Shown: positions 2,755-33,083 of the stretch, in pieces | Numbering within the stretch: the first letter of the stretch is position 1 | Layout of the letters: each line of letters starts with the position of its first letter | Notes under the pieces: model-generated | The model's input: only the letters and a program-made list of their open reading frames with translations | Told to the model about the DNA's origin: nothing | Databases searched by the model: none | From: Candidatus Omnitrophota bacterium | Lineage (GTDB): Bacteria; Omnitrophota; Gorgyraeia; Gygaellales; Profunditerraquicolaceae | Direction: 5' to 3' | Assembly: GCA_043800555.1 (NCBI GenBank) | Contig: JAZDMX010000017.1 | Span: 4,068 to 68,067, forward strand | DNA: 64,000 bases | Made by a program: the position numbers and the translations under genes

Positions 2755-2900
2755 GTTTCTAAAAAAAGGGGACGCGGGAATTGGGGACGTTTCTACTTTT
2801 CCAGAGTTTAAAGCCGGAAAAGTAGAAACGTCCCCAATTCCCGTAGAAACGTCCCCCTTTTCGCAATTTCTAGAAAAGCGGAAACGTCCCTTTTTTTTCG
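2755..2900. repeat. Composite, nested copy of the palindromic REP-like element. It carries extra GGGGACG-cgggaatt units.
   Basis: Contains GGGGACGTTTCTACTTTTC ... GAAAAGTAGAAACGTCCCC plus mirrored flanks. Lies immediately upstream of the start of the giant repeat protein. Confidence 0.85.
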
Positions 2901-2940: not shown

Positions 2941-3522
2941 TCATTCCGCCCCAAACATAAACGCGGGTTCGTCGGGGATGGCTTCTTCGGAATTCTTAAA
3001 CGCCCCCCTTAAGGTAATTATTCCTCCGCCTCCTCCTAAAACTACTTCTCCGCCTTTCCTTATGTAAAGCGCCTTATCCGTAACATTATCCGGAGCAATC
3101 AATCCGTAAACGAAATTCTCGGCGGTAACCGTTGAATCCGTCCTCCCGCCGGCTGTAAGCGATTTCGCCTTAAAAACTTCAGACACTTTAGAGATAACTA
3201 CGCCGGCCCCCTGCTTGTCGACAACGGCATCATCCGATGAGCCGGGCACTCCTTTGGGGAACCAATTGCCGGCTTTATCCCAGCTTGCCGCGTCGGCCTT
3301 CCCCGACCACTGCTTCGTATCAGCCCGCGCGCCGCTACAAGAAAAAAATAGCACAAAAATGAATAAACTCAAGGAAAATATGAGAGAAAAGGGGGACGAA
3401 AAAAAGGGGGACGTTTCTACTTTTCTGGCGCTAGATTCGGGAAAAGTAGAAACGTCCCCTTTTTTCCCGTTCTCCTTTTCTCCGCTTCTCTTTTCTCTTG
3501 AGACATCCGCATTTTTCTTCAT
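2941..3522 (-). CDS. Secreted hypothetical protein. Its N-terminal region includes a translated REP-like element, followed by a hydrophobic signal-like segment.
   Basis: The 193-aa ORF has its ATG at 3522, overlapping the stop of the upstream gene in an ATGA arrangement. Hydrophobic stretch SLIFSLSLFIFVLFFSCSGARA. Confidence 0.5.
   Translation of the reverse strand: MKKNADVSREKRSGEKENGKKGDVSTFPESSARKVETSPFFSSPFSLIFSLSLFIFVLFFSCSGARADTKQWSGKADAASWDKAGNWFPKGVPGSSDDAVVDKQGAGVVISKVSEVFKAKSLTAGGRTDSTVTAENFVYGLIAPDNVTDKALYIRKGGEVVLGGGGGIITLRGAFKNSEEAIPDEPAFMFGAE
3387..3467. repeat. REP-like palindromic element, copy 2.
   Basis: GGGGGACG aaaaaaa GGGGGACGTTTCTACTTTTC tggcgctagattcgg GAAAAGTAGAAACGTCCCC with a T-run. 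Confidence 0.9.
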
Positions 3523-4832
3523 GGCCTGACAAATAGCGAAGCTCCGCCAATATCCATTTTCTTTACTTCCAAATAAACCTTGCCATCCAGAATTATTTCA
3601 CCCGAGACGTCATTAAAGCCATAATCATACAGGCCATTATACCCCAAACTCAAAAGGTTAAGGCCTAAATCAGCCGCCAGGCGCGGCCGGGCGGAAAAAA
3701 CTTTATTGCCCTCCGGGTATTCTATGGTATAAGTTTCAATAAGCGGCTGGGCCAAACCGGAAATCTTGGAAAATTGGACCTTAAGCACCCAGGAAGAGCC
3801 CCCGCTTTCGGGCTTTGCCTCCAGGATTAAAGAATCTTTATTATCAATACCGCTTAAATTGTCCAGATAGAGCGCCTTGACCTCCCTGGAATCCGGTATA
3901 GGGAACCTCGCCCCTTCCTTCAGCATAAGATTGCCCGAGCGCATCGGCGCGTTACGCAAAGCGACAAAAGTAATGCTTTGGCGCGTACTGCCGTTTTTGC
4001 TTTGCGCGGTAAAAGCGATTTCTATCGCCGTGATTACGGGTATATCGGAAGTTGCTATGGAGCCTTCCGAACCCAATTCGCTATTTGTATTGTCAAAATA
4101 ACGAAATTTAAAATCCGTGATTTTCACCCCGAAAGGATTTTTATAAACCTCTTTCGAACCGTCTTTATCGTCAATAAATACTGCTTGGGCAAGCGGGTCA
4201 TAGCGAAAAGTTACCAGGCAATCGGCGTCTTTTCCATAATCCGGATAAAAAGTAAAACGCAGGTGGCTGCCGGCAGGCACAGCCATATCCAGCTTGAATT
4301 GAGGGTAGTCTTCGGATTTTCCTTTATCGATGAAGGTGACCGGAACAACCTTGTATTCATTGGATTCGGGCAAAAGCGCCTCGGCAATCGGCAGGCTTGC
4401 GCCGGGTTTAATATGTTTATTTAAGGTATAGGTGTTGACCCCGGTATAGACGTCGTGAGTGTCGTCGGTCCAAGGCATAACCGTAACAACTTTTTCAGAA
4501 GTGCCGTCTACCACTTCCAGCGCGTCGCGAAGCCCGTAAGCGCCGGGAAGCCCTTCCACGAGTTCCTCCATAATCCGCGAAGAAGCCTGCTGCAAAAGAA
4601 GCTGATCCTGGGAAATGTCCCAACTTTCCAAGGCAGTCTTCAGGCTGAAATATAACGCGGCTGTGATTAAAGTGGAAATCGCTACGGCGATAACGAGTTC
4701 AATAAGAGTAAACCCCCTGGAAAAGGGGGACGTTCCCGCGGAAAAGGGGGACGTTTCTACTTTTCTGGCGCTAGATTCGGGAAAAGTAGAAACGTCCCCC
4801 TTTTTCAGCTCGCCTTTTCTTCTCATATCCAT
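3519..4832 (-). CDS. Large prepilin-type N-terminal cleavage/methylation domain protein. Possibly a minor pilin or tip-adhesin-like subunit.
   Basis: The motif SRG|FTLIELVIAVAISTLITAALYF is a class III signal with Glu+5. Total length 437 aa. A 40-aa leader includes the translated REP element. Confidence 0.6.
   Translation of the reverse strand: MDMRRKGELKKGDVSTFPESSARKVETSPFSAGTSPFSRGFTLIELVIAVAISTLITAALYFSLKTALESWDISQDQLLLQQASSRIMEELVEGLPGAYGLRDALEVVDGTSEKVVTVMPWTDDTHDVYTGVNTYTLNKHIKPGASLPIAEALLPESNEYKVVPVTFIDKGKSEDYPQFKLDMAVPAGSHLRFTFYPDYGKDADCLVTFRYDPLAQAVFIDDKDGSKEVYKNPFGVKITDFKFRYFDNTNSELGSEGSIATSDIPVITAIEIAFTAQSKNGSTRQSITFVALRNAPMRSGNLMLKEGARFPIPDSREVKALYLDNLSGIDNKDSLILEAKPESGGSSWVLKVQFSKISGLAQPLIETYTIEYPEGNKVFSARPRLAADLGLNLLSLGYNGLYDYGFNDVSGEIILDGKVYLEVKKMDIGGASLFVRP
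4712..4806. repeat. REP-like palindromic element, copy 3, with an extra partial left arm.
   Basis: GGGGGACGttcccgcggaaaaGGGGGACGTTTCTACTTTTC tggcgctagattcgg GAAAAGTAGAAACGTCCCCC. Confidence 0.9.
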
Positions 4833-5326
4833 ATACTGTCCTCGAACAAAGTAGCCACGGAAGCAACCGGCTTCTTAAGGTTATCGCTGCGGTAAACCTC
4901 CACCCTGACCTCCAAAGGGTCCGTATCGGCAAGAACGCGCCGCAAAACCCTCCACTTGGCCTGGTTCATTTCCAAAGGAGGCTCATCCAGTTTTGGCGTC
5001 CAGAGGTCGCCTATTTTTTTAAGGCCGGGCTTGGTAACATTCAAATTCTGGGTCCTTTCCATTTCCCAGCGCGCCAGGTTTACAGCGGTAATCTCTTCTC
5101 CTGAAACCGTAACGGAATAAAGAGCGCTTGAAAAAAGCTGTATCATCGGTATAAAGAGCACGGCGATAACGACAAGCGCGATGAGGATCTCGATAAAAGT
5201 AAATCCCCGGAAAAAAGGGGACGTTTCTACTTTTCCCGGATCTGGCGCCAGAAAAGTAGAAACGTCCCCTTTTTTCCGGGAAAAGTAGAAACGTCCCCCT
5301 TTTTCTTTTTCGATATCAAAACGCAT
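4823..5326 (-). CDS. Minor pseudopilin, GspI/J- or PilV-like, with a prepilin N-terminus.
   Basis: FRG|FTFIEILIALVVIAVLF. The leader contains a translated REP element. Confidence 0.6.
   Translation of the reverse strand: MRFDIEKEKGGRFYFSRKKGDVSTFLAPDPGKVETSPFFRGFTFIEILIALVVIAVLFIPMIQLFSSALYSVTVSGEEITAVNLARWEMERTQNLNVTKPGLKKIGDLWTPKLDEPPLEMNQAKWRVLRRVLADTDPLEVRVEVYRSDNLKKPVASVATLFEDSIWI
5211..5306. repeat. REP-like palindromic element, copy 4 (1.5 copies: one hairpin plus an extra right arm).
   Basis: GGGGACGTTTCTACTTTTC ccggatctggcgccag AAAAGTAGAAACGTCCCC ttttttccggg AAAAGTAGAAACGTCCCCC. Confidence 0.9.
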
Positions 5327-5720
5327 TATACCTCACTTGAACAGCGCGCTTGACGCCGTTACTGTTACCTATAGAAACTATTGTTGATTGCGAATAATCG
5401 TTATACACTTCAAAAACGCCTCCGTTTAATTTCGTGGGAGGGACTATCATATCAAGTTGTTCTTGTTCATCTACAGGCGCTTCCCCTGCCTGGTTCTTAA
5501 GAGCGCTGACTGCCTTGGCGATCCCGGCTTCGGCTAAATATAACGCTCTTGCCCTATCCAGCTCAATCTGGCTTAAGCTCAACACGTTAAAGAACAAAGC
5601 CATAAGGGTCGCCCCTAAAAGAGAAATCGTAAGGATCACAATCAGGACAATCAATAAAATTGCCCCTTTTTCGGCTTGCGGCTTGCGGCGTATGGTTAGC
5701 GCTAAGCGCTCCATTACCAT
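5316..5720 (-). CDS. GspK/PilX-like minor pseudopilin N-terminal domain protein.
   Basis: EKGAILLIVLIVILTISLLGATLMALF followed by ELDRARALYLAEAGI, resembling the GspK/PilX N-terminal helix. It has no Glu+5. Confidence 0.5.
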   Translation of the reverse strand: MVMERLALTIRRKPQAEKGAILLIVLIVILTISLLGATLMALFFNVLSLSQIELDRARALYLAEAGIAKAVSALKNQAGEAPVDEQEQLDMIVPPTKLNGGVFEVYNDYSQSTIVSIGNSNGVKRAVQVRYNAF

Positions 5721-6259
5721 TCAGAAGGCACCTCGCCTTTGTTTTTTCCCCACTTATCGCTCAAAGGCTCGGTTACATTCACTACCACCTTGGCTTTATC
5801 CGTATAATACGCCCAGCCTCCTGCGCCGGACAGATCCTCGTCGCTCTTAAGGTCTACAAAAGAATTGCTGCCTGCTTTGGAAGAAACCATCTCCAGGGGA
5901 AGTTTGGCTAAGTATGGCTGCTTAACGCCCATATCATCGTAGCTCCTGGTCAAGAGATCAGAAAGCGCCACGGGATATTCCCCTTCTTTGGCGCGGAACA
6001 TCGCGATGCGCGTGCGCAGCGTATTTAAATTGGTGAGTGTGGCCGAAACCTTTGCTTCCGTATCAAAACCAATGAAATTAGGAATAATAGTCGCTGCCAA
6101 TATCGCGATGATAGAAATAACAATTAGAAGCTCAAGCAAAGTGAAGCCCTTAGAAAAGGGGGACGTTTCTACTTTTCTGGCACGAGGCTTGCGAAAAGTA
6201 GAAACGTCCCCCTTTTCCGCGCCCCCTTTTTCCTTCCGGAAAGATAATGCTAACCTCAT
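5714..6259 (-). CDS. gspG: GspG/PulG-like major pseudopilin (type II secretion / type IV pilin-like).
   Basis: SKG|FTLLELLIVISIIAILAATIIPNF is a textbook GspG N-terminus. The 38-aa leader includes a translated REP element. Confidence 0.75.
   Translation of the reverse strand: MRLALSFRKEKGGAEKGDVSTFRKPRARKVETSPFSKGFTLLELLIVISIIAILAATIIPNFIGFDTEAKVSATLTNLNTLRTRIAMFRAKEGEYPVALSDLLTRSYDDMGVKQPYLAKLPLEMVSSKAGSNSFVDLKSDEDLSGAGGWAYYTDKAKVVVNVTEPLSDKWGKNKGEVPSEW
6153..6233. repeat. REP-like palindromic element, copy 5.
   Basis: GGGGGACGTTTCTACTTTTC tggcacgaggcttgc GAAAAGTAGAAACGTCCCCC. Confidence 0.9.
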
Positions 6260-6263
6260 TTTC

Positions 6264-7508
6264 CTACCTCCTGATAACGCTGATTAGATTAAAAATAGGC
6301 AATAAAACAGATAGGGCGATAAAAGCCACAATCGAACCCATTACCAAAAGCATTGCCGGCTCAAGCAGGCTGGTAAGGTTACGCACCGTAAATTCGATTT
6401 CCGGCTCATAAAAAGAGGCTATCTGGTCGAACATCTGGTCAAGCCTCCCTGTGCGCTCTCCCGTGTTAATCAACTGTATAACCATAGGCGGGAATAAACC
6501 CGACGCCTGGAAAGGCTCGGTTAAGCTTTGCCCTTGCGAAATAGCTAACCGGGTGTCTTTAATCATCTTTTGCAGGACAACATTAGGAATAGTATTCTCT
6601 ACCACCGAAAGCGCTTCTAACACCGGGACTCCGGATTTGGTAAGGGCGGCTATAGAACGCGATAAGCGGCTGGTTATGACCTTAAGGGTCAGCGGCCCAA
6701 ACAACGGAAGCCGCAGAAGCAAGAAATCAATGCGGTAGCGGCCCGCCGAAGTCCGGTAATAATTCCTTAAAGCGTTTAGGCCAATGATAGCTGCCAGGCC
6801 GATTAACCACCAGAAATTCCTTACGATATAGCTTAAAGAAAGCAGGGTTTTTGTAGGTAAGGGCAACTTGGCCGAAGAGGCTTCAAATATGGCAACGAAT
6901 TTAGGGAGGACCGCGACCAAAACAAAATTCACGATAACAAAAGCTACCAAGCCCAGCACTATAGGATAAACCAATGCCGAACGGATCCGGCTGCGCAGGT
7001 CAATCTCCTGCGTGCTTAATTCCGCCAGCCTGCTCAAGACCTTATCCAGCATGCCTCCGGCTTCCCCCACTTTGATTAAGCTTACATATAAATTCTCGAA
7101 GATACCGGGGTAGCGGGCAAGCGATTCCGAAAAACTCAATCCCTCCTCTAAAGAAGAAATAATATCTTTTATGACCGACTTAAACCTCGAATTTTGCGTC
7201 TGGCCTAAAACATTTTCCAGGCTTGTAATTAACGGGGCGCCGGTAGAAATAAGGGTGCTTAACTGTCGAGTAAATACAAGCAACTCCTGGCGCGAAACTC
7301 TTCTCACCCAGAAAGGGGAGGGCGTTTCCACTTTTCCCGAGCTTGGCGCCGAAAAAGTGGAAACGCCCTCCCCTTTTTCCGCTATGTCAACCGGGCTAAG
7401 GCCGAGTTTCTCTATTGACAAGGCTGCTTTTGTTTCGTCTTCGGCATCAATGACCCCTTGAGCCAAAGCGCCTTGGGCATCTCTTGCTTTATAGCTAAAG
7501 GTTGTCAT
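6264..7508 (-). CDS. pilC: Type II secretion system protein F / type IV pilus platform protein PilC. A 23-codon REP-like element is inserted in-frame.
   Basis: The N-terminus reads MTTFSYKARDAQGALAQGVIDAEDETKAALSIEKLGLSPV, then the insertion GEGVSTFSAPSSGKVETPSPF, then SRQELLVFTRQLSTLISTGAPL and three TM segments. Confidence 0.85.
   Translation of the reverse strand: MTTFSYKARDAQGALAQGVIDAEDETKAALSIEKLGLSPVDIAEKGEGVSTFSAPSSGKVETPSPFWVRRVSRQELLVFTRQLSTLISTGAPLITSLENVLGQTQNSRFKSVIKDIISSLEEGLSFSESLARYPGIFENLYVSLIKVGEAGGMLDKVLSRLAELSTQEIDLRSRIRSALVYPIVLGLVAFVIVNFVLVAVLPKFVAIFEASSAKLPLPTKTLLSLSYIVRNFWWLIGLAAIIGLNALRNYYRTSAGRYRIDFLLLRLPLFGPLTLKVITSRLSRSIAALTKSGVPVLEALSVVENTIPNVVLQKMIKDTRLAISQGQSLTEPFQASGLFPPMVIQLINTGERTGRLDQMFDQIASFYEPEIEFTVRNLTSLLEPAMLLVMGSIVAFIALSVLLPIFNLISVIRR
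7310..7380. repeat. Variant REP-like palindrome (subfamily) lying in-frame inside pilC.
   Basis: GGGGAGGGCGTTTCCACTTTT cccgagcttggcgccg AAAAAGTGGAAACGCCCTCCCC. The arms differ from the main family but remain perfectly complementary to each other. Confidence 0.8.
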
Positions 7509-9027
7509 AGCCCCAATACTCCTTCAACTTCTTTACCTTATCGTCATATATTTCCGTTTCTATGGATTTTTTTTGCGCTGCCTCTTTGGCCAGGCGTGAT
7601 TCTGCCCGGGCCTGCGCGCGGGCTTGTTCCTGGGCTTGCTGCGCCTTTTCTGCCCTATAAGCCTTAATCATTTCTCTCTCTAACTTAGCCCTTCGACGCG
7701 CTTCTTCCAGCAACGCCTGGTTGACAAGGCTCTTCTTATCCTCTTCCAGCGCTCCCTGCAAACGCTCTTTAAGGTCCTCGTCTTCCTGCAGCCGAAGCGC
7801 CTGGGAACTCTCTTCTTTTGTCAAATTCCTGATTTTGGCAAGTTCGGCCTCGGCCTTGCCGCGCGCTACTTTCCTTATGCGCGCGTTAACAGAGTTCCTC
7901 AATTCCACGGCCTTATCCGCGAATTCCGAATCCGGGTACTTTAATAATATCTTCGCGCACATCTCTTTGGCTAAATTCTGTTCGCCTAAATCGCTATATA
8001 AGGCTGCCGCCTGATAAGCGGACTCCGGCGCCTTTGGGCCGTCGGGAAACTGGGTAACGATACACTCATATATGCTTAAAGCCTGGTTCTTGCGCTGCCA
8101 ATCGTCTTTGTAAAAAGATTCTACGCCGGTGTTTTCCTGGAGGTTTTTAGCTTTTTCAAACAGCTTCGCCTGCACATTGAGGTCCGCCGTGCTCATAATG
8201 TTCACATAGGCTTCCTCTTCATAACGCGTCTTGTTTTCAGCGAGCATCTCCGCGCGCGAAAGCAGGATTTTGGGGGTAATGAAAACCGCCAGCTCCGTCT
8301 GGCTCTTATCGCTGCTTCTGCTGCTAAACAAATATTCTATACCCGGGATATAACCTAATATGGGGATGCGCGACCGCGTGCTGCTATCTTCTTGTTTGAT
8401 AAGCCCGCAGATTACAATAGTCTCGCCCTCTTTGACCCTTACAGTTGTGTCTGCTTCGCGCGTAGTAATGCGCGGCCCGGCGTCCAAAAGAGCGCTTACC
8501 GAAGAAACCTCCGGATGTATCGCCAGGGTAATATAACCATCGGCGTTAATAGACGGAGTTACCCGCAAAGTCGTCCCTACATCAATATATTTGGTGGTTT
8601 CAGTTGTGCCGGTAGTAGTCTGGGTCTTCTCCTTATACGGGACCTTCTCTCCGATAATAATGCGGGCCTCCCGGTTATTTAAAACCGCAATGGACGGAGA
8701 CGCCAATAAATGCGCTTTCTGGTCCTGGATTAAGGCGTCTATGGTAGCGGTAGCGGTCAAGCCGTTTAATACCAGGCTATCCAGCTTAAACTGCCCGCCG
8801 GAAAGGCTTGAGGATGTCCCGGCGAGAGTTTGAGTCATCTTAACAACTTTAGAAGAAGCCGATGGGCTCCAATCCGCGGTCCAGGTAACTCCCAGGTTCT
8901 TTAAATCTTTGGAGGTCATATCCACAATCTTGGCTTCAATAAGCACCTGCCGCGGCGGCTGGTCAACATCCTTAAGCAGCGCTTTTAATTTCTCGATACT
9001 GGCAGGATAATCGGTTACCACAAGCAT
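7495..9027 (-). CDS. pilQ: Secretin (GspD/PilQ family) C-terminal part. It contains the secretin domain plus an unusual ~260-aa TPR (YbgF-like) and charged coiled-coil C-terminal extension.
   Basis: PRQVLIEAKIVDM, ASPSIAVLNNREARIIIGEKVPY, SRIPILGYIPGIEYLF and TELAVFITPKIL. The frame stays open 27 codons upstream of the ATG, to a stop at 9103-9105. Confidence 0.75.
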   Translation of the reverse strand: MLVVTDYPASIEKLKALLKDVDQPPRQVLIEAKIVDMTSKDLKNLGVTWTADWSPSASSKVVKMTQTLAGTSSSLSGGQFKLDSLVLNGLTATATIDALIQDQKAHLLASPSIAVLNNREARIIIGEKVPYKEKTQTTTGTTETTKYIDVGTTLRVTPSINADGYITLAIHPEVSSVSALLDAGPRITTREADTTVRVKEGETIVICGLIKQEDSSTRSRIPILGYIPGIEYLFSSRSSDKSQTELAVFITPKILLSRAEMLAENKTRYEEEAYVNIMSTADLNVQAKLFEKAKNLQENTGVESFYKDDWQRKNQALSIYECIVTQFPDGPKAPESAYQAAALYSDLGEQNLAKEMCAKILLKYPDSEFADKAVELRNSVNARIRKVARGKAEAELAKIRNLTKEESSQALRLQEDEDLKERLQGALEEDKKSLVNQALLEEARRRAKLEREMIKAYRAEKAQQAQEQARAQARAESRLAKEAAQKKSIETEIYDDKVKKLKEYWGYDNL

Positions 9028-9047: not shown

Positions 9048-9521
9048 TTATATCTCCCTTATTCGAGAGGACTTGCGCACAAGGTTCTGGGCGTCGGCAG
9101 CCTTAATGTATTTCAAGATTATAGGAACGGTGATGACTTGCGCGCCGTCAACTGAACCGGGCGAAATATAAAGCATATTGCCTTTACGGGAATAATTATA
9201 ACCATTGCCGGACAATATCGCCTCCAACGCCTCGCCTATCGATACGTCTTTTAAGGAAACGGTGATTTTTCCTTTAACATCGGAGGAAGTAACTAAGTTT
9301 AATCCGTAGGTATAACTTAGAGAACGCAGGACATCGGCGATATCGACATCTTTGTAATCCACGGAAATCATTTCTTTAAGAGGGTCGGATAGCGCTGCCT
9401 CTTTAGTCCCGGCTTCCGGGCTTATGCCCGCACCGGCAGCAGGCAACGGCGATCCTTGCGCCAAAGGCGCAATAGCCATGAATAGAAAGGACGCGCAAAT
9501 AAACGCTATTTTGTTTTTCAT
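9048..9521 (-). CDS. pilQ: Secretin N-terminal fragment: signal peptide plus N0/N1 domains. It is separated from the secretin body by a frameshift.
   Basis: MKNKIAFICASFLFMAIAPLAQG signal peptide. ISVDYKDVDIADVLRSLSYTYGLNLV is a secretin/TonB-N-terminus short (STN) domain. The fragment ends AQNLVRKSSRIREI*. Confidence 0.65.
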   Translation of the reverse strand: MKNKIAFICASFLFMAIAPLAQGSPLPAAGAGISPEAGTKEAALSDPLKEMISVDYKDVDIADVLRSLSYTYGLNLVTSSDVKGKITVSLKDVSIGEALEAILSGNGYNYSRKGNMLYISPGSVDGAQVITVPIILKYIKAADAQNLVRKSSRIREI

Positions 9522-9559: not shown

Positions 9560-10456
9560 TTATCTTTCGAGTTTCAATACTTCCTTTTCTGCCCCGCTAT
9601 TAATAACTACGGAATTAGGCAAAATTCTTTCTATCTTTGCCCAGTCAACCTGATCGCCTGCCTTAACTATCAGCCCGTTAATTATCGCAGTTGAGCTAGC
9701 CCCGCTCTCCCGATAGGCTATACCGGTGACCTTTAGTTTCTTTCTTTTGGTTTTATCCACAACAAATTTAGGCGTAAAAGGGCTGCGCTTAAGGACTCCG
9801 TCATCTGCTCCGGGCTCTTTGGCAGACAAAGATAACTGGCCGCGGTTATTTGAAGCGTAACTTAAAAGAGCGCTTAATCTTAAAGAAACGTTAATCGTCG
9901 AAAGCAAATCATTCTTGGACTGGCCCAGCCTCATTTCATCCATCCTGACAAACGGCGAAATAGACTCTATCCTCTTTATATAGGTAACCGCTTTGCCATA
10001 ATCAGAAGAGAACTCCAAATCTATATAAAGCCTGCCAAACCCTTCTTTATCTTCTTTGACATCTTCTTTAACGGATTCCAGGTCCACGCCCAGGCTTTGA
10101 GCGTTCTTTATAACCTCGGCCAATAGATACTGTTCCTGGGAAGCGCCGATTAGCTTTGATTCAATATCGGAAATATGCAACTTTAACTCTTTAATCTCCC
10201 GCCTTATTGCTTCTATCTCCTGGCTGGCTGTAGCCGAAGAAGGAAGCTGGGAATCAAGAAGCCCAAGCTGATTTTGATTCTCCTGCAGTTTTTTTCTCAT
10301 CTTGCTGATATCGTTTAAGGCCGGCTTTAAAAACAAGGCGAAATAAAATGAAGCGGCCAGCACAAAAACAAAAATGAGGAAAAGCCGCTGTTCACCCTTC
10401 TTCAATTTGCCATACCAATTGTTATAGATCACCGCTAGCTGCTTGATAAGCATCAT
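9560..10456 (-). CDS. PilO-like coiled-coil protein fused to a C-terminal PilP-like domain.
   Basis: N-terminal TM segment, a coiled coil, and a C-terminal LKVTGIAYRESGASSTAIINGLIVKAGDQVDWAKIERILPNSVVIN that is PilP-like. Confidence 0.55.
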   Translation of the reverse strand: MMLIKQLAVIYNNWYGKLKKGEQRLFLIFVFVLAASFYFALFLKPALNDISKMRKKLQENQNQLGLLDSQLPSSATASQEIEAIRREIKELKLHISDIESKLIGASQEQYLLAEVIKNAQSLGVDLESVKEDVKEDKEGFGRLYIDLEFSSDYGKAVTYIKRIESISPFVRMDEMRLGQSKNDLLSTINVSLRLSALLSYASNNRGQLSLSAKEPGADDGVLKRSPFTPKFVVDKTKRKKLKVTGIAYRESGASSTAIINGLIVKAGDQVDWAKIERILPNSVVINSGAEKEVLKLER

Positions 10457-11097
10457 TCTTTGGCCTTTTTCGCTGCGCCCAAAGGCGACTTTTTTTGATT
10501 CCAGCCGGGTTCGGTAACAATCTGAAAATTATAAATAACGTGTGAATCTATAACCTGCTTTTCCGTAGAAACAAACCGGGTATTCCTAAAATCCTTGCAG
10601 CCGTCAAGCTTATTCATGAAATCGGCGATCAATTGGCTGTTAATCGTTGACCCGGATACCTGGATTTCATTATCATTCATTATAAGGCGGTTTATCCATA
10701 AATCCTGCGGCAGGAGCCCCGCGATAGAGGCAAGCAGCCCGCAATAGCCCCCGCTTCTTGCCACGGTAGAAGACAACAAGTCCAGGCGTTGTTTAAATAG
10801 CGCCTCTTCTTTGATTAAGCCGGATTTTAACTTCTCGGCTTGAAAATCCCGGGTTTGCAATTTCTTAAATTTAGTTTTTGTATCTTCTATCGCCTGTTTT
10901 GTTAAGCCGATGTTAAGCCTATAGCTATTTACCATAAACGCGGGGCCGGCAATTAATAAAAAAATTGGCAAAAACCCAAAAACGATAAGCCTGCTTAACC
11001 GCCTCTTTTTCCCGCCAAGGGCTTTAAACATTTTAGATAACGGCCTATTAAGGGCGTTTTTGGAAATAAGGTTAACCGGCTTTAATTTCAAAATCAA
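10453..11097 (-). CDS. pilN: PilN-like pilus assembly protein.
   Basis: Single TM segment RLIVFGFLPIFLLIAGPAF followed by a coiled coil. Positioned between pilM and the pilO-like gene. Confidence 0.6.
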   Translation of the reverse strand: MILKLKPVNLISKNALNRPLSKMFKALGGKKRRLSRLIVFGFLPIFLLIAGPAFMVNSYRLNIGLTKQAIEDTKTKFKKLQTRDFQAEKLKSGLIKEEALFKQRLDLLSSTVARSGGYCGLLASIAGLLPQDLWINRLIMNDNEIQVSGSTINSQLIADFMNKLDGCKDFRNTRFVSTEKQVIDSHVIYNFQIVTEPGWNQKKSPLGAAKKAKE

Positions 11098-12160
11098 TAC
11101 CTCCGTTTATAAATTTTGTTGCCAGCCCTAAAGCCCCGGTAAAGGCTATAGAATTCTGCTGGACAACCGGGTTCAACCCGTTCTCGGAGTGAGAAACAAA
11201 AAAAGCCAAAGGATCAAAGACATTAACCGGGATTTCCAATTTGTCAGCCAGGAATTTATCCAGGTTTTTCAATGCCGCCGCCCCGCCGCACAAAATAAGG
11301 CGCTCGATTTCCGGCGCTTTAGATTTTACAAATTTATGGGAGAAATCTTTAATCGCGTGCTCAATATCAATAAGCATATTTTCCATCTGGCTGGAAAGCG
11401 CCGGGCACTCACCCAGGCCTTCCTCTATCTTTAAGGCTTCTGCCTTTTCCCAATCAAACTGATAGTATCCGGCCAAGATTCCGGTAAAACCGTTACCCGA
11501 GGCACCTAACGGCGTTATAAGATAGGGATGGCCCCCGGATACAATAATTATCGAGGAATTGCTTGCTCCTATTCGCAGCACCAAAACAGTTTCCTTTTCT
11601 GATATATTTTTAGATAAAGACAGGGCTTCAATAACTGCGTAAGGCTGGGGCTCAATAGAAACTAAATCTAAGGATAAGCCCTTAAAGAACTTGGCCATAT
11701 CCAAAACTGTTTTCTTGCTAGTTACAAATACTAAAACATAAATATCCTTATTCCCGGCCTCCTGGGGGCTGGCGCAAACATAATCAAACGATATATCATC
11801 AAATTTTACTCCCGGAGGAAGGTTCTGTTTGATTTTCCAGGTAAGGGCGGGTTCAACTTCGCCTGCGGGCATATCCGGCAAGGTATAGCTATAGGTGTTA
11901 ATCCCGCTCAACGGGATCGAAACCGCTACTTCCCCTTTGACCCGATTCTCTTTTACAAGTTTCTCCAAAGAATCTTCCGGGATAATGGAGACAGGGACGC
12001 CTTTATCGCGCCCAAGGCTGGCATAGTCAGCTTTTAGGATTTTATAACTGGATTTGAATTTGGCTAATTGCAATAGCTTAAGCGAACTTGAACCTATTTC
12101 TATTGCAGTAGGGAAATACTCCGGCTTTAATCGCAACACTCTAACCTCCTTTACGGGCAA
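11072..12160 (-). CDS. pilM: Type IV pilus assembly ATPase-fold protein PilM (actin-like).
   Basis: VLRIGASNSSIIIVSGGHPYLITPLGASG and ERLILCGGAAALKNLDKFLADKLEIPVNVFDPLAFF. Confidence 0.8.
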   Translation of the reverse strand: MPVKEVRVLRLKPEYFPTAIEIGSSSLKLLQLAKFKSSYKILKADYASLGRDKGVPVSIIPEDSLEKLVKENRVKGEVAVSIPLSGINTYSYTLPDMPAGEVEPALTWKIKQNLPPGVKFDDISFDYVCASPQEAGNKDIYVLVFVTSKKTVLDMAKFFKGLSLDLVSIEPQPYAVIEALSLSKNISEKETVLVLRIGASNSSIIIVSGGHPYLITPLGASGNGFTGILAGYYQFDWEKAEALKIEEGLGECPALSSQMENMLIDIEHAIKDFSHKFVKSKAPEIERLILCGGAAALKNLDKFLADKLEIPVNVFDPLAFFVSHSENGLNPVVQQNSIAFTGALGLATKFINGGIDFEIKAG

Positions 12161-12530: not shown

Positions 12531-12620
12531 CCCGGAAAAAGGGGGACGTTTCTACTTTTCCGGCGCCAGATCCGGGAAAAGTAGAAACGTCCCCCTTTTT
12601 CCAGGCCCCTTTTTTAACCC
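12531..12620. repeat. REP-like palindromic element, copy 7, immediately 3' of the RAYT gene.
   Basis: GGGGGACGTTTCTACTTTTC cggcgccagatccgg GAAAAGTAGAAACGTCCCCC. Confidence 0.9.
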
Positions 12621-13282
12621 CTCGGCCTTCCTATTTTTTTGTTAAAGTTATTTATTTGATAGAACTCTGATAACCCGCGGACAAACGCCTCGCTGCCGAT
12701 GAAAAACTGTTTAGAAATAACCTCTGAATTCACTATGCTGCTATCTACTACAAATTCTATATATAGTTTCGCTCTAGCCTGGAGAGAGCCGGAAAGGCTG
12801 CAATACGCCGGGCTATCGGAAATTACGGCATTTGGCAAACCAAGCGCATAATAACAGTAGCTGCTGAAGCGATACCTTTCAGGCGCTTTAACCAGCCCGG
12901 ACCTTACCGGATTAAGCTCAATATACTTCCCGCATTGCAAAAGATACGAATCGGTATCAATAATATTGCTTTTATACCTGCCCTGCCAGATATGCCCGCT
13001 GTAACCATAAGTCCTTTTGTAATAATTAAAATATAAGAGATTGAGTTGTTTCATAAACTTGGGCAAGTTACTTGTAGCATCCAGCCAAACAATCAAATGG
13101 CTATGGTTACTCATGATACAATAGTGGAATATACTGATATTATTCTCTTTTCTAAGGTTTTTTAGCAGTTCCCAATAGGCATGCTTGTCTTCATCGCACC
13201 TAAAGATACACTGCTGGTTATTTCCTCTAGTCATAATATGCAAAGCCCCATTCCGGGGGATAAGCCTTCTTGTCCTGGGCAT
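12614..13282 (-). CDS. REP-associated tyrosine transposase (RAYT; IS200/IS605 TnpA-like Y1 HuH transposase).
   Basis: HuH motif CIMSNHSHLIV and catalytic-Tyr motif YIELNPVRSGLV, the RAYT signature Y..NPV.AGLV. AGGAGG Shine-Dalgarno sequence upstream. REP copies flank it on both sides. Confidence 0.8.
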   Translation of the reverse strand: MPRTRRLIPRNGALHIMTRGNNQQCIFRCDEDKHAYWELLKNLRKENNISIFHYCIMSNHSHLIVWLDATSNLPKFMKQLNLLYFNYYKRTYGYSGHIWQGRYKSNIIDTDSYLLQCGKYIELNPVRSGLVKAPERYRFSSYCYYALGLPNAVISDSPAYCSLSGSLQARAKLYIEFVVDSSIVNSEVISKQFFIGSEAFVRGLSEFYQINNFNKKIGRPRG

Positions 13283-13357: not shown

Positions 13358-13465
13358 TTGGGGACGCGAAATTGGGGACGCGAAATTGGGGACGTTTCTA
13401 CTTTTCTGGCTTTAGGTTCTAGAAAAGTAGAAACGTCCCCAATTTCGCCCAATTCCGCGTCCTAG
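13358..13465. repeat. REP-like element, copy 8. Extended form with two GGGGACG-cgaaatt units, 5' of the RAYT gene.
   Basis: GGGGACGcgaaattGGGGACGcgaaattGGGGACGTTTCTACTTTTC tggctttaggttctag AAAAGTAGAAACGTCCCC aatttcgcccaattccgCGTCC. Confidence 0.9.
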
Positions 13466-13682: not shown

Positions 13683-13752
13683 AAAAAAAGGGGACGTTTC
13701 TACTTCTCTAACAATCAAGCCCGGGAAAAGTAGGAACGTCCCCTTTTTTTGC
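13683..13752. repeat. REP-like palindromic element, copy 9 (slightly degenerate), 3' of pilB.
   Basis: GGGGACGTTTCTACTTcTC taacaatcaagcccgg GAAAAGTAGgAACGTCCCC. Confidence 0.85.
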
Positions 13753-13764
13753 CTCCCCCTTTGC

Positions 13765-15435
13765 TTATCCTTCATGGGTAACCCGCAGGACCTCGGAAAC
13801 ACTGGTAATCCCTTTAAGCAGCTTATCGATACCGTCTTCATACATTGTCTTCATTCCTTTGCGGATGGCAGCATCCCTAATTTCTCCGGCGGAAGACTTT
13901 TTCTCAATCAATCTCTTAATGTCGTCATCCGGCACGAGCATTTCAAAAATCCCTATCCTCCCCGAGTATCCGGAATTCCGGCACTCCTGGCAACCCTTTT
14001 CCCGGTAGAACCTGATAGGGCCGGGCCCTGCCTTGACACTCAACTCATCCAACAACTCCTTGGCGGGAGAATAGGCTTCTTTGCAGCGCGGGCATAATAC
14101 CCTCAACAGGCGCTGCGCGACCACGCAGATTAACGCCGAAGAAACCAAAAACGGCTCGGTCTCCATATCGATTAACCTGGTGGCTGCCGAAGGCGCATCA
14201 TTAGTATGAAGAGTGGAAAAAACCAAATGCCCGGTTAAAGCCGCATGGATGGCAATCTCGGCAGTTTCGTGGTCACGCACCTCGCCAATCATAATTACGT
14301 CGGGGTCCTGCCGGACAAGAGAACGCAGGCCCACGGCAAAAGTAAGGCCGGCCTTGACATTTACCTGCGACTGGCGCACCCGGTCGATCTCATATTCAAT
14401 CGGATCTTCCATGGTAACTATGTTTTGCTCGGTGCTATTAATATCAAGCATAACGGCATAAAGAGTGGTGCTTTTGCCGGAGCCGGTCGGCCCGGTAACC
14501 AAAATAATCCCGTGCGGCTTACGGATTATCTCCTTGAATGCCTCCAATGCCCCATCCGGCATCCCTAAATCTTTCAGCCGGATAAGCGAGCGAGTCTTAT
14601 CCAAAATCCTGATAACCAGGTTTTCGCCATACATCGTAGGAAAGGTTGAAACGCGCAAATCAACGCTCCTTCCCGCCGCAACTGTCTGAATGCGCCCATC
14701 CTGCGGAAGCCGTTTCTCTGAAATATCCATATTAGACATTATCTTGATCCGGGAAATTATTGCCGCTTCGTATCTTTTGGCAAGTTTTGGCATGTCATGA
14801 AGGACCCCGTCCATCCTGAAACGGCAATAAAAATCTTCTTTTTCGGGCTCAAGGTGTATGTCGCTTGCCCCCAATTCAACCGCCTTGGCGATTAAATTAT
14901 CCACAATGCTTACCACCGGAGCAAGGCTGGCAATCTGCACGGAATCCATACCCGTCAAATTGACAACTTCCGCCTCTTTATCCTGCCCCGCCTTAAGCGC
15001 GGAAAAACTTTCTTTACGGTATTCCCTGTTAATATTATCGAAAACTTGCGACGGCCGGGCAAAAACCAGGCGCACCGGCTCCTTAATCGCTTTGCGGATT
15101 TCATCTGTAGATTTTTCATCCAAAGGGCTGGCCAAAGCCACTGTAACAGCGGTAGCGCTCTTAAAAATCGGCAATGCCGAATATTTCCTGATTATCTCTT
15201 CGGGCAACAGCCTAATGACCGCCGGCTCTAACTTGTATCTTGACAGGTCCACGCAGGCAAAACCCAGCTGTTCGCTTAACGCCAGAGTTACCTGCTCCTC
15301 GTTAGCGTAGCCTTTTTTGATCAGGATCTCGCTTAAGCTCCTGCCGGAACTCTCTTGCTCTGCCAAAGCTTCATCAAGCTGGCTGCTTGTGGTGATATTT
15401 TTGGTAACTAATAATTCGCCCATCCTTTTCGTCAT
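13765..15435 (-). CDS. pilB: Type IV pilus / type II secretion assembly ATPase of the GspE/PilB family.
   Basis: N-terminal GspE_N-like domain. Walker A motif GPTGSGKSTT, and a C-terminal tetracysteine CPRC...CQEC. Confidence 0.9.
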   Translation of the reverse strand: MTKRMGELLVTKNITTSSQLDEALAEQESSGRSLSEILIKKGYANEEQVTLALSEQLGFACVDLSRYKLEPAVIRLLPEEIIRKYSALPIFKSATAVTVALASPLDEKSTDEIRKAIKEPVRLVFARPSQVFDNINREYRKESFSALKAGQDKEAEVVNLTGMDSVQIASLAPVVSIVDNLIAKAVELGASDIHLEPEKEDFYCRFRMDGVLHDMPKLAKRYEAAIISRIKIMSNMDISEKRLPQDGRIQTVAAGRSVDLRVSTFPTMYGENLVIRILDKTRSLIRLKDLGMPDGALEAFKEIIRKPHGIILVTGPTGSGKSTTLYAVMLDINSTEQNIVTMEDPIEYEIDRVRQSQVNVKAGLTFAVGLRSLVRQDPDVIMIGEVRDHETAEIAIHAALTGHLVFSTLHTNDAPSAATRLIDMETEPFLVSSALICVVAQRLLRVLCPRCKEAYSPAKELLDELSVKAGPGPIRFYREKGCQECRNSGYSGRIGIFEMLVPDDDIKRLIEKKSSAGEIRDAAIRKGMKTMYEDGIDKLLKGITSVSEVLRVTHEG

Positions 15436-15454: not shown

Positions 15455-15530
15455 AAAACGGGGAAATCGGGGACGTTTCTACTTTTCGGGGCCCGAAAGC
15501 CGGAAAAAGTAGAAACGTCCCCGATTTCTC
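15455..15530. repeat. REP-like palindromic element, copy 10.
   Basis: GGGGACGTTTCTACTTTT cggggcccgaaagccgg AAAAAGTAGAAACGTCCCC. Confidence 0.9.
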
Positions 15531-18314: not shown

Positions 18315-18950
18315 CTATAGGCTTTTAATCCGCGAAGCTATATCTTCCCTGAAGGCGGCTTGGTCCGCGGGAATTAATCCAAGCAGCTCGGTATATTCTT
18401 TCCTGGCCTCTTTAACATCGCCCATCTGCGCGTATACCTGGGCCATCCTTTCCTTGAACAAAAGATTCCGCGGGTCCAGCTGAAACGCGATATTCCACTG
18501 CGCCAAAGATTCTTCAAGCAGGCCCAAATCCAATAACCCCTGGGCATACCTGCCCCTTAAACCCGGCGAGTTAGGCTTTTTCGCTATTTTCTGCTTATAC
18601 AGGGCCACAGCCTCATCCGGCTTATTCGCCCCCACATAAGCCTGCGCTAAAATGTCGGAACTGGCGATGTCATCCGGATTAGCGGCTACCTTCGCTTCTA
18701 ATACGCCGATTGCCGCGTCATAATTCTTAGCCATCATATAAGCGTCAACCAGGCGGGTGGCCAAAATAGAGTCGCCGGGATTTTCTTTTACCAAATCCTC
18801 GTAGATTTCGCTTACCTTGGCCCAATCCCCCAGGCGCACATACCCTTCGGCAATCCCTCTTTGCAAACTTACGCTTGGGGAGCTTTTCGCCGCTACCTCC
18901 AATTTTTCTATTGCCGGGTTGATCCCGTCATTTTTTTGGGGCCAAATCAT
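18315..18950 (-). CDS. TPR-repeat protein. It is probably the C-terminal part of a gene split at a homopolymer frameshift.
   Basis: Multiple TPR-like helices. It has no signal peptide of its own, and its ATG at 18950 sits just after a T7/A7 run. Confidence 0.55.
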   Translation of the reverse strand: MIWPQKNDGINPAIEKLEVAAKSSPSVSLQRGIAEGYVRLGDWAKVSEIYEDLVKENPGDSILATRLVDAYMMAKNYDAAIGVLEAKVAANPDDIASSDILAQAYVGANKPDEAVALYKQKIAKKPNSPGLRGRYAQGLLDLGLLEESLAQWNIAFQLDPRNLLFKERMAQVYAQMGDVKEARKEYTELLGLIPADQAAFREDIASRIKSL

Positions 18951-27736: not shown

Positions 27737-27802
27737 AAAAGGGGGACGTTTCTACTTTTCTGGCAATCCGGCTCAAGAAAAGTAGAAACGTCCCCCTTTT
27801 CC
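27737..27802. repeat. REP-like palindromic element, copy 13, in the divergent eno/ftsH intergenic region.
   Basis: GGGGGACGTTTCTACTTTTC tggcaatccggctcaa GAAAAGTAGAAACGTCCCCC. Confidence 0.9.
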
Positions 27803-33010: not shown

Positions 33011-33083
33011 GAAAAAAAGGGGGACGTTTCTACTTTTCTCGGCTTTAGGCTCAAGAAAAGTAGAAACGTCCCCCTTTTTTTTG
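33011..33083. repeat. REP-like palindromic element, copy 14.
   Basis: GGGGGACGTTTCTACTTTTC tcggctttaggctcaa GAAAAGTAGAAACGTCCCCC. Confidence 0.9.

What the first reader, a model, noticed from the sequence alone, without database searches (positions are those of the whole stretch)
7495..8280. Secretin with a ~260-aa C-terminal TPR plus charged coiled-coil extension
After the conserved secretin-domain end (TELAVFITPKIL) the ORF continues through a YbgF/CpoB-like TPR segment (YQAAALYSDLGEQNLAKEMCAKILLKYPDSEFADKA) and about 120 residues of E/K/R/A/Q-rich coiled coil. Secretins normally end with only a short S-domain. The tail might substitute for a pilotin or for peptidoglycan/Tol-Pal anchoring.
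Basis: partly seen in the sequence, partly recalled or inferred. Interest (0 to 1): 0.55.

Follow-up and report, generated by a model that had tools for sequence, protein, structure and literature searches.

The report
Omnitrophota secretin with built-in TPR tail
The outer-membrane pore protein (secretin) of a pilus/secretion machine in an uncultured Omnitrophota bacterium carries a C-terminal protein-binding (TPR) domain plus a long charged helix; the TPR part is standard across this secretin clade and apparently undescribed, so it is a modest lineage-specific variant, not a one-off oddity.

Summary
The sequence features are real. ORF 7495..9027(-) has a Pfam Secretin domain ending at TELAVFITPKIL (aa 255), then 255 more residues in the same frame. 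These are a ~50-aa linker/helix, two YbgF/CpoB/BamD-type TPR repeats, and one predicted continuous helix of ~137 residues.

Three corrections apply:
- The TPR module is not unusual within its family. 118 of the 120 best homologs, and all 22 related genome loci, carry it. Where named, they are labelled Omnitrophota, "bacterium" or "uncultured Planctomycetia".
- Only the charged extension varies. About 10% of homologs have tails over 185 aa. A heptad coiled coil is not supported; long-tailed relatives look like ER/K single alpha-helices.
- The 510-aa ORF is a fragment. A 1-nt frameshift near 9072/9071 separates it from its N-terminal part (9048..9521). The gene is otherwise undecayed.

The most likely function is inferred, not shown. 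I propose a periplasmic collar of TPR domains where pilotins normally dock, acting in cis in secretin assembly or docking, with the helix as a spacer.

The closest precedents are TPR pilotins acting in trans (PilF, Tgl, TadD) and Akkermansia PilQ, which has an N-terminal BamD-like TPR. I rate it a new variant of a known kind, of moderate interest.

The parts
7495..9027 (-). Annotated 510-aa ORF (NCBI MFH0855793.1, V1869_04730). It holds the C-terminal two thirds of a secretin (end of a Secretin_N domain plus the Secretin domain) and the 255-aa tail.
9048..9521 (-). N-terminal fragment of the same secretin gene, in another frame. It has a signal peptide (MKNKIAFICASFLFMAIAPLAQG/S, no lipobox), an STN/N0 domain and the start of Secretin_N.
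   Evidence: Pfam STN E=5e-12 and GspD N0 E=2e-6. The homolog consensus runs across the junction.
9069..9074 (-). Frameshift site, reading ...CGC AAG|TCC... Homologs read R-K-V-L-S, which fits AAG GTC CTC if one G is restored. This is a 1-nt deletion relative to the intact gene. There is no slippery heptamer. It is either an assembly error or a very recent mutation.
   Evidence: P0202 reads ...FLRKVLSPKGDIKVDE; the corrected 675-aa protein breaks only 5 of 140 conserved columns.
8263..8736 (-). Secretin (beta-barrel/gate) domain, aa 98-255, ending in TELAVFITPKIL.
   Evidence: Pfam PF00263, 171.6 bits, E=1.4e-50.
8104..8262 (-). Clade-specific linker, aa 256-308. It has a short helix, a 30-residue helix and the conserved loop G-[LIV]-E-S-R-R-K-D. 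In this window the loop is degenerate, GVESFYKD.
7873..8103 (-). Two YbgF/CpoB/BamD-type TPR (TPR_6) repeats, aa ~309-385, with the motifs QFPDGPKAPESAYQAA and KYPDSEFADKA.
7513..7872 (-). Charged A/E/K/R/Q/L-rich extension, aa 386-505. It is predicted as a direct continuation of the last TPR helix, giving one helix over aa 369-505, roughly 20 nm if straight. The first ~80 residues are shared with relative P0007. It matches no Pfam family.
7495..7512 (-). Low-confidence C-terminal end (GYDNL) plus the stop codon. It overlaps the start of gspF by 14 nt.
6264..7508 (-). GspF/PilC platform gene, directly downstream and overlapping the secretin stop. This order is conserved in 18 of 19 related loci.
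   Evidence: Pfam T2SSF E=5e-57; synteny.
9560..12160 (-). Upstream pilM (11072..12160), pilN (10453..11097) and a pilO-like gene (9560..10456) of the same operon. The pilO-like gene has a C-terminal GspB/PilP-like domain.

Best explanation
The region encodes the C-terminal accessory module of a PilQ/GspD-type secretin. The secretin belongs to a type IV filament machine of a Candidatus Omnitrophota bacterium, with gene order pilM-pilN-pilO-secretin-gspF-pseudopilins and a GspE/PilB ATPase nearby.

Shown:
- The module has three parts: a clade-specific linker helix with a conserved GxESRRK loop, two YbgF/CpoB/BamD-class TPR repeats, and a long charged alpha-helix.
- The linker and TPR are conserved in essentially every close homolog.
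- The charged helix varies by lineage, from 0 to ~370 aa.

Inferred:
- In solved secretins, the chain leaving the last barrel strand (the S-domain) lies on the outer, periplasmic face of the barrel, under the outer membrane. There its C-terminal tail inserts into a pilotin.
- By analogy, the 12-15 TPR modules of an assembled pore would form a periplasmic collar in the pilotin position.
- The collar would act in cis as a protein-binding platform. It would promote or stabilise multimer assembly and dock the pore to an envelope partner. TPR pilotins (PilF, PilW, Tgl, TadD) or BamD do this in trans in other bacteria.
- The charged helix would be a semi-rigid spacer projecting about 20 nm from the collar.

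In this assembly the gene is interrupted by a single-base frameshift. That is more likely an assembly error or a very recent lesion than long-standing decay.
For: - Secretin domain followed by an in-frame tail.
- Conservation: 118/120 homologs have a median 150-aa tail with conserved motifs. 22/22 genome loci have intact fused genes.
- Operon: pilMNO upstream and gspF overlapping downstream.
- No AMIN domain and no lipobox. None of the 120 homologs has an AMIN Pfam hit.
- Topology precedent: S-domains lie on the outer barrel surface and their C-terminal tails engage pilotin cavities (PMC12531336). The last residues of RcpA sit in the TPR groove of TadD (PMC10499894).
- Fusion precedent in the same PVC superphylum: Akkermansia PilQ (Amuc_1098) has an N-terminal BamD-like 3-TPR domain that its authors compared to pilotins (PMC4960237).
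- The only small TPR gene seen near the operon (18315..18950) has no signal peptide.
- The extension is predicted as one 137-residue helix. Relatives show an ER/K charge pattern at z=3.3-5.1.
- The gene is not decayed: 5 violations in 140 conserved columns, against a median of 3 in homologs.
Against: - No experiment or multimer model places the tail. Its periplasmic location is by analogy with T2SS, T3SS and Tad secretins.
- One study reported extracellular C-termini for T4P secretins (PMC4453517).
- A fused, non-lipidated domain cannot perform the Lol-dependent targeting that defines pilotins.
- Only 64 kb of the genome was seen, so a separate pilotin elsewhere is not excluded.
- The near-invariant RR of the GLESRRK loop is FY in this copy, and the gene is frameshifted. 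This particular copy may therefore be non-functional.
- Extensions of 300 aa or more in relatives (about 45 nm if straight) exceed a typical periplasm. That sits badly with a simple periplasmic strut.
Confidence: 0.5

Rival explanations
1. Envelope-coordination anchor. The CpoB-like TPR binds a peptidoglycan-synthesis, Tol-Pal or other periplasmic partner, and the charged helix reaches towards the wall or inner membrane. This would tether and position a secretin that lacks peptidoglycan-binding AMIN domains. It is the reader's second suggestion.
For: - The best sequence and fold matches are CpoB/YbgF.
- No AMIN domain occurs in this protein or in any of the 120 homologs. AMIN domains are what bind peptidoglycan and position PilQ elsewhere (PMC10653833).
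- CpoB itself pairs a helical oligomerisation region with a TPR domain (own knowledge).
Against: - The match is to the repeat class only. NCBIfam tol_pal_ybgF scores 29 bits against a 90.1 cutoff.
- The same profile matches about 9,000 clusters of multi-repeat TPR_6 proteins.
- No peptidoglycan-binding domain was detected in the tail.
- No tol-pal genes were seen next to the operon.
- The extension is absent in ~90% of homologs, so it cannot be essential for anchoring.
Confidence: 0.2
2. In this genome the gene is a pseudogene. The long charged extension is a neutral low-complexity expansion with no specific role, so the tail does nothing here.
For: - A 1-nt frameshift splits the gene.
- The near-invariant RR in the GLESRRK loop is replaced by FY.
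- The extension varies widely in length and sequence even among relatives at 66-70% identity, with tails of 144-500 aa.
- The extension matches no Pfam family.
- The window's extension shows no significant heptad or ER/K pattern.
Against: - Apart from the single missing base, both parts are open and conserved: 5 of 140 conserved columns violated against a median of 3.
- All flanking operon genes are intact.
- The proximal 82 aa of the extension are conserved with P0007 at 48% identity, E=2e-11.
- A single-base indel in a MAG is a common assembly artefact (own knowledge).
Confidence: 0.2
3. Surface-exposed tail. The C-terminus passes to the cell exterior, and the TPR and charged helices form an external fringe. 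In these ultra-small, possibly host-associated bacteria it could serve adhesion or partner binding.
For: - One study reported extracellular C-termini for the T4P secretins BfpB and PilQ (PMC4453517).
- Extensions of 300-370 aa in relatives would be longer than a periplasm is wide.
Against: - Solved secretin structures place S-domains and pilotin contacts on the periplasmic side (PMC12531336, PMC10499894).
- YbgF/BamD-class TPRs are periplasmic modules in every characterised case that matched.
- Nothing in the sequence suggests a translocation segment after the barrel.
Confidence: 0.05

Closest known systems
PilQ / GspD / MshL secretins (Pfam PF00263; NCBIfam TIGR02515, TIGR02517, TIGR02519)
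   Same: - Signal peptide, N0/STN domain, Secretin_N domain and C-terminal secretin barrel.
- Encoded with pilM, pilN, pilO, gspF/pilC, a GspE/PilB ATPase and prepilin-type pilins.
   Different: - Below the curated cutoff of every specific secretin model. Intact homolog P0012 scores PilQ 256 against 284 and GspD 256 against 351.
- No AMIN domains and only one Secretin_N domain.
- About 150 or more extra C-terminal residues with a TPR domain, in place of nothing (PilQ) or a short S-domain (GspD).
TPR lipoprotein pilotins PilF / PilW / Tgl (T4aP) and TadD (Tad)
   Same: - An all-helical TPR module associated with the C-terminal, membrane-proximal part of a secretin.
- TadD holds the last residues of RcpA in its groove (PMC10499894).
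   Different: - Those are separate lipoproteins with 5-6 TPRs and a lipid anchor, and Tgl acts only transiently.
- Here there are two TPR_6-type repeats covalently fused to the secretin, with no lipobox.
- Sequence similarity is to the CpoB/BamD class, not to PilF.
CpoB (YbgF) and BamD (YfiO/ComL) periplasmic TPR proteins
   Different: - Scores are far below the family cutoffs: tol_pal_ybgF 29 against 90.1, BamD 18.8 against 81.4.
- There is no N-terminal trimerising coiled coil and no tol-pal context (CpoB).
- There is no lipobox and there are not five TPRs (BamD).
Akkermansia muciniphila PilQ (Amuc_1098 family, NF042912)
   Same: A PVC-superphylum secretin covalently fused to a BamD-like TPR domain. 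Its authors likened the domain to pilotins (PMC4960237).
   Different: - That TPR is N-terminal (aa 71-239 of 907), with three repeats.
- Here the TPR is C-terminal.
- The family model scores 45 bits against a 750 cutoff, and only over the barrel end.
ER/K single alpha-helix (SAH) spacers; TolA domain II-like charged helices
   Same: Long, highly charged, uninterrupted predicted helix. Long-tailed relatives show enriched i/i+4 opposite-charge pairs at z=3.3-5.1 and no heptad seam.
   Different: The window's own 120-aa extension has 18% hydrophobic residues and no significant ER/K pattern (z=0.7). It has no sequence homology to TolA or to any Pfam family.

Membership tests
Secretin superfamily (PF00263) | C-terminal secretin domain above the Pfam gathering score | tested here: met
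   171.6 bits against a 27.5 cutoff, aa 98-255.
Secretin superfamily (PF00263) | N-terminal signal peptide plus N0/STN and Secretin_N periplasmic domains in one polypeptide | tested here: inconclusive
   The domains are present but split over two frames (9048..9521 and 7495..9027) by a 1-nt frameshift. They are intact in all 22 related loci.
Type IV pilus secretin PilQ (TIGR02515) | Score above the curated cutoff; AMIN domain(s) are common in the family | tested here: not met
   168.9 bits for the fragment and 256.2 bits for intact homolog P0012, against a 284.35 cutoff. No AMIN Pfam hit in the window protein or in the 120 homologs.
Type II secretion secretin GspD (TIGR02517) | Score above the curated cutoff; N0-N1-N2-N3 domains; C-terminal S-domain | tested here: not met
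   206.8 and 256 bits against a 351.35 cutoff. Only one Secretin_N domain. The GspD model alignment ends 6 residues after the barrel (aa 261).
CpoB / YbgF (TIGR02795, NF008068) | Whole-protein score above cutoff; N-terminal coiled-coil domain plus C-terminal TPR; tol-pal operon context | tested here: not met
   29 bits against 90.1, and 20 bits against 383. Only the TPR repeats match. No tol-pal genes are adjacent.
BamD / YfiO (TIGR03302, PF13525) | Lipoprotein signal peptide and five TPRs above cutoff | tested here: not met
Pilotins (PilF/PilW/Tgl/TadD type) | Separate outer-membrane lipoprotein (lipobox Cys) | tested here: not met
   The domain is fused in cis. The secretin signal peptide ends AQG/S with no lipobox.
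Pilotins (PilF/PilW/Tgl/TadD type) | Required for secretin multimerisation and outer-membrane localisation | not testable with these tools
   This needs genetics or biochemistry.
Amuc_1098-family PilQ (NF042912) | N-terminal BamD-like TPR plus C-terminal secretin, above cutoff | tested here: not met
   45 bits against a 750 cutoff, matching only aa 188-255. The TPR is at the opposite end (PMC4960237).
Canonical coiled coil | Heptad periodicity of hydrophobic residues above composition-matched shuffles | tested here: not met
   Mean best-register score 0.241 against 0.228+/-0.044 for shuffles; 185/500 shuffles reach it; z=0.3. This was a crude in-house test, not a trained predictor.
ER/K single alpha-helix | Enriched i/i+4 and i/i+3 opposite-charge pairs in a long helix with few hydrophobic residues | tested here: inconclusive
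   Window z=0.7 (not met). Relatives P0007, P0009, P0010, P0202 and P0025 give z=3.3-5.1. AF2 predicts a single long helix.

The most novel reading that the evidence does not exclude
The Omnitrophota secretin may be 'self-piloting'. The fused C-terminal TPR of one subunit would capture a short conserved peptide of a neighbouring subunit, as TadD captures the last residues of RcpA. Candidate peptides are the subclade-specific extreme C-terminal motifs such as ...TNISxxR, ...GNRGIIQGGQ and ...DLKIL. This would staple the ring together without any lipoprotein pilotin. In some lineages the ER/K-type helix would act as a molecular ruler, setting the distance between the outer-membrane pore and the wall or inner-membrane platform in these ultra-small cells.
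Probability: 0.12. Interest if true: 0.65.

Novelty: new variant of a known kind. Interest (0 to 1): 0.4.

Why it matters
How secretins reach and assemble in the outer membrane without a dedicated pilotin is still an open question for many systems. A whole phylum appears to encode the TPR accessory domain on the secretin polypeptide itself, at the end where pilotins normally dock. That offers a natural cis version of the secretin-pilotin or secretin-BamD relationship.

It can be tested by truncation, heterologous expression and multimer modelling. Together with the N-terminal BamD-like TPR of Akkermansia PilQ, it suggests that PVC-group bacteria have fused TPR helpers to secretins more than once.

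The practical annotation point is smaller. These proteins are currently named 'hypothetical', 'tetratricopeptide repeat protein' or 'secretin N-terminal domain-containing protein'. In this MAG the gene is split by a frameshift.

Tried and rejected
- **Whole-library profile search with the tail.** The result was swamped by ~1000-aa multi-repeat TPR_6 proteins: 9,004 clusters at E<=1e-10. Only single-stretch matches covering profile positions 1-133 were true fused tails (P0115, P0104, P0001, P0202, P0007 and some fragments). No standalone version of the module was seen. The short hits (P0159, P0215, P0243, P0266) look like fragments.
- **Genome-contig scan with the 44-sequence alignment.** A narrower alignment gave 22 loci. 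Detection depended on two peptide patterns, so this is a lower bound and says little about other phyla.
- **Short-profile search with the clade-specific first 78 residues.** It returned only two partial Omnitrophota fragments, probably a limit of the word index. It gave no family-size estimate.
- **Foldseek against afdb50.** The library was unavailable.
- **Separate gene after frame correction.** Rejected. The tail is in frame with the barrel here and in all homologs. The frameshift that exists lies at the other end of the gene.
- **Programmed frameshift.** Rejected as unlikely, because there is no slippery heptamer at ...CGCAAGTCC....
- **Tandem DNA repeats as the origin of the charged extension.** None were found.
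- **Fusion with a downstream gene.** One genome (L023) has a 343-aa signal-peptide, coiled-coil and TPR gene between the secretin and gspF. I considered whether the window's extension derives from fusing such a gene. 18/19 loci lack that gene whatever their tail length, so there is no support.
- **Gene 18315..18950 as a pilotin.** This 211-aa TPR gene has no signal peptide or lipobox, so it is not a pilotin candidate.
- **Translation of L023:5600-6125.** It was in the wrong frame and uninformative.
Full report
**1. What is in the sequence**

ORF 7495..9027 on the minus strand encodes 510 aa. It is identical to NCBI protein MFH0855793.1, 'hypothetical protein V1869_04730', from a Candidatus Omnitrophota MAG.

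Pfam places a Secretin domain at aa 98-255 (171.6 bits, E=1.4e-50). The last third of a Secretin_N domain sits at aa 2-27. The barrel ends with ...TELAVFITPKIL at aa 255, and the frame stays open for 255 more residues. The flagged interval 7495-8280 covers aa 250-510 plus the stop codon. The quoted TPR peptide is present, and the last ~126 residues are A/E/K/L/R/Q-rich. The sequence-level observation therefore holds.

**2. The ORF is a fragment of a frameshifted gene**

ORF 9048..9521(-), 157 aa, lies 20 nt upstream in a different frame. It carries a signal peptide and an STN/N0 domain.

Reading the downstream ORF's frame further upstream gives ...CAQVLSNKGDIKVDEVANM. The upstream ORF ends ...AQNLVRKSSRIREI*. 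Ninety-three homologs read ...AQNLLRKVLSxKGDIKVDE across this point. One G is missing between AAG (9074-9072) and TCC (9071-9069). There is no slippery heptamer at the site.

A frame-corrected protein of 675 aa breaks only 5 of 140 columns that are at least 90% conserved. The homolog median is 3, and 26% of homologs have 5 or more. The lesion is therefore an assembly error or very recent.

**3. Anatomy of the tail**

AlphaFold2 with a 94-sequence alignment models aa 247-405 at mean pLDDT 92. In ORF numbering (aa 247 = model residue 1) the elements are:
- a weakly defined ~20 residues with a short helix;
- a 30-residue helix (aa 268-297);
- a loop;
- four helices forming two TPR repeats (aa 309-363);
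- a capping helix.

By sequence, the window tail alone hits E. coli CpoB at E=1.2e-4. A profile of 44 homologous tails hits CpoB at 1.2e-16, YbgF at 3e-9 and BamD at 3.5e-8. NCBIfam gives sub-threshold matches to tol_pal_ybgF, CpoB and the T9SS lipoprotein PorW/SprE.

A second model of the whole tail has pLDDT 89.9. It shows the capping helix continuing as one uninterrupted helix from aa 369 to 505. That is 137 residues, or roughly 20 nm if straight. The last five residues are disordered.

**4. Coiled coil?**

A simple best-register heptad score over aa 385-490 is not above composition-matched shuffles (185/500 shuffles reach it; z=0.3). An ER/K (i/i+4, i/i+3) charge-pair score is also not significant (z=0.7). 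No tandem DNA repeat underlies the region, and no Pfam family matches it.

Relatives with much longer extensions give a clearer picture. P0007, P0009, P0010, P0202 and P0025 have up to ~370 aa of ...EERLAKIEAKRKADEERKAKEEE... sequence. In them the ER/K pattern is strongly enriched (z=3.3-5.1) with no heptad signal (z=-0.2 to 1.6). That is the signature of single alpha-helix spacers rather than coiled coils.

These are crude in-house scores. I treat 'long charged helix' as shown by prediction and 'coiled coil' as unsupported.

**5. How common is the tail?**

The 120 best database homologs are labelled Omnitrophota/Omnitrophica or 'bacterium' wherever a source names them. Of these, 118 have a recognisable barrel-end motif followed by at least 129 residues, apart from one truncated entry. 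The median is 150 aa. The other two also contain the module.

The first ~135 residues align well, with a conserved pattern...RSREE...EEAYVNI..TG.L..V..LFEKA..L..G.GLESRRKD..FRK.QAL.LYE.I..QFP.S.KAPEALYRA..IYY....D...A......LISDYP.S..A..AK. Many of these proteins already carry precomputed PF13174 or PF13525 hits.

A scan of one-genome-per-species GTDB contigs recovered 22 loci. All are labelled Omnitrophota, 'uncultured Planctomycetia/Planctomycetales' (TPA MAG labels) or unclassified 'bacterium'. Every one has an intact secretin gene with a 136-218 aa tail.

What lies beyond the TPR is variable:
- Most homologs have only 15-40 basic residues.
- Several subclades end in short conserved peptides: TNISxxR in 18, GN[RK]G[IV]I.GG in 10, DLKIL-like in 10.
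- Twelve homologs, including P0003, P0006, P0007, P0009, P0010, P0013, P0025, P0038, P0044 and P0097, have tails over 185 aa.
- Two (P0099, P0115) carry a second copy of the TPR module.

The first 82 residues of the window's extension are homologous to P0007 (48% identity, E=2e-11). The rest is not. Among relatives at 66-70% identity, tail lengths range from 144 to 500 aa, so the extension expands and contracts quickly.

I could not establish whether the module occurs outside Omnitrophota:
- The whole-library profile search was swamped by multi-repeat TPR_6 proteins.
- A short clade-specific profile returned only two fragments.
- afdb50 was unavailable.

**6. Genomic context**

The minus-strand operon reads as follows:
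- GspE/PilB-type ATPase with an MshE-type c-di-GMP-binding N-terminus (13765..15435);
- an IS200-like Y1 transposase (12614..13282);
- pilM (11072..12160);
- pilN (10453..11097);
- a pilO-like gene with a C-terminal GspB/PilP-like domain (9560..10456);
- the split secretin;
- gspF/pilC (6264..7508), which overlaps the secretin stop by 14 nt;
- five prepilin-type genes (5714..6259 down to 2941..3522).

The order pilM/N-pilO-secretin-gspF-pilins recurs in a 1.5-Mb Omnitrophota genome. gspF follows the secretin directly in 18 of 19 loci with enough sequence.

No curated secretin subtype model reaches its cutoff. For intact homolog P0012, PilQ scores 256 against 284 and GspD 256 against 351. There is no AMIN domain and only one Secretin_N domain. 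The secretin signal peptide has no lipobox. The only small TPR gene nearby (18315..18950) has no signal peptide.

**7. Mechanism**

Shown:
- The tail is a conserved TPR_6 module covalently attached immediately after the last barrel strand, plus a variable charged helix.

From the literature:
- In solved secretins, the S-domain that follows the barrel lies on the outer surface of the barrel on the periplasmic side.
- In the Tad system, the last residues of RcpA sit in the TPR groove of the lipoprotein TadD and are essential for assembly (PMC10499894).
- T4aP pilotins PilF, PilW and Tgl are TPR lipoproteins (PMC10653833).
- Akkermansia PilQ, from the same PVC superphylum, has an N-terminal BamD-like TPR domain that its authors likened to pilotins (PMC4960237).

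Inference:
- In the assembled 12-15-mer, the TPR modules form a periplasmic collar in the pilotin position.
- The collar acts in cis as a protein-binding platform for assembly, stabilisation or docking.
- The helix, where present, is a spacer.

I put this at about 0.5. Rivals:
- a CpoB-like envelope-coordination or anchoring role (0.2);
- no function in this genome because of pseudogenisation, or because the extension is neutral low-complexity sequence (0.2);
- a surface-exposed tail (0.05), prompted by a report of extracellular C-termini in T4P secretins (PMC4453517) and by extensions too long for a periplasm.

A fused, non-lipidated domain cannot replace the Lol-targeting function of a pilotin. 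'Works like the secretin-binding half of a pilotin' is the most that can be claimed. Membership in the pilotin, CpoB or BamD families is not met.

**8. Novelty and verdict**

I found no paper describing this architecture. Searches combining Omnitrophota or Omnitrophica with PilQ or secretin returned nothing relevant, and searches on secretin, TPR and fusion or C-terminal extension gave only the precedents above.

The architecture is, however, ubiquitous in its clade and already visible in precomputed domain tables. Its components (secretin, TPR helper, charged helix) are all known kinds. I classify it as a new variant of a known kind, with moderate interest (0.4). It is a natural cis arrangement of a secretin and a TPR helper that makes pilotin-independent assembly experimentally approachable. 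It is not a surprise to a specialist, and this particular copy is frameshifted.

Noticed in passing
window 9069-9074 (between ORFs 9048..9521 and 7495..9027, minus strand): A single-base frameshift splits the secretin gene. One G is missing relative to the homolog reading R-K-V-L-S. NCBI annotated only the downstream 510-aa piece, as 'hypothetical protein'. The gene is otherwise well conserved, so this may be an assembly error.
   Followed up: yes
window 2783-2835, 3407-3459, 4747-4799, 5217-5298, 6159-6211, 7318-7376, 12542-12594, 13388-13440, 13690-13743, 15469-15522, 17815-17867, 21901-21953, 27742-27795, 33020-33073, 44005-44056, 52757-52809: There are about 16 copies of a ~65-nt palindromic element, GAAAAGGGGGACGTTTCTACTTTTC-N13-15-GAAAAGTAGAAACGTCCCCCTTTTC. 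That is 33 arm matches against 0.02 expected by chance. Two copies flank the IS200-like Y1 transposase ORF 12614..13282. This resembles a REP/RAYT ('REPtron') arrangement.
   Followed up: partly
window 5714..6259, 4823..5326, 3519..4832 (pilin ORFs) and 7307-7377 inside gspF 6264..7508: Several hairpin copies lie inside reading frames.
- In three prepilin genes the element is translated as ...EKGDVSTF...KVETSPF... within the leader peptide, just before the GFTL[IL]E cleavage motif. No alternative start codon lies after it.
- A degenerate copy encodes part of the variable linker of GspF (aa ~45-68). That linker is 8-9 aa longer than in homologs.
The repeats appear to be tolerated in-frame in dispensable or cleaved segments.
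   Followed up: partly
window 9560..10456 (minus strand): The PilO-like protein (298 aa) has an extra C-terminal segment, aa 240-286. It gives weak matches to T2SSB (GspB) and CdsD_C domains (E~2e-4). It may be a PilP/GspB-like secretin-N0-binding domain fused to PilO.
   Followed up: no
window 13765..15435 and 19261..20838 (minus strand): The GspE/PilB-type ATPase carries an MshE-type c-di-GMP-binding N-terminal motif (NF053729, 54 bits against a cutoff of 38). A response-regulator-GGDEF-HD-GYP protein is encoded ~4 kb upstream. This hints at c-di-GMP control of the machine.
   Followed up: no
window 15534..17879 (minus strand): A 781-aa protein with DUF6701 and Ig-like domain matches lies next to the ATPase. 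It has no NCBIfam match.
   Followed up: no
L023 10720-11751 (CP070797.1, Omnitrophota genome): In this one genome a 343-aa gene sits between the secretin and gspF. It encodes a signal peptide or TM segment, ~200 aa of charged coiled-coil-like sequence and a C-terminal TPR. It is absent from the other 18 loci.
   Followed up: partly
homologs P0099 and P0115 (768 and 764 aa): These secretins carry a second full copy of the linker-TPR module (...LVERIFEKARELD...LISKYPDSEFAK...) after the first. The accessory module has been duplicated in tandem.
   Followed up: no
C-termini of homologs listed: Subclades share short conserved extreme C-terminal peptides after a variable basic linker. These are ...TNISxxR (18 proteins)...GN[RK]G[IV]I.GG[QK] (10)...DLKIL-like (10) and ...LFPL[KR] (3). 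They recall secretin C-terminal tails that insert into pilotin grooves.
   Followed up: partly
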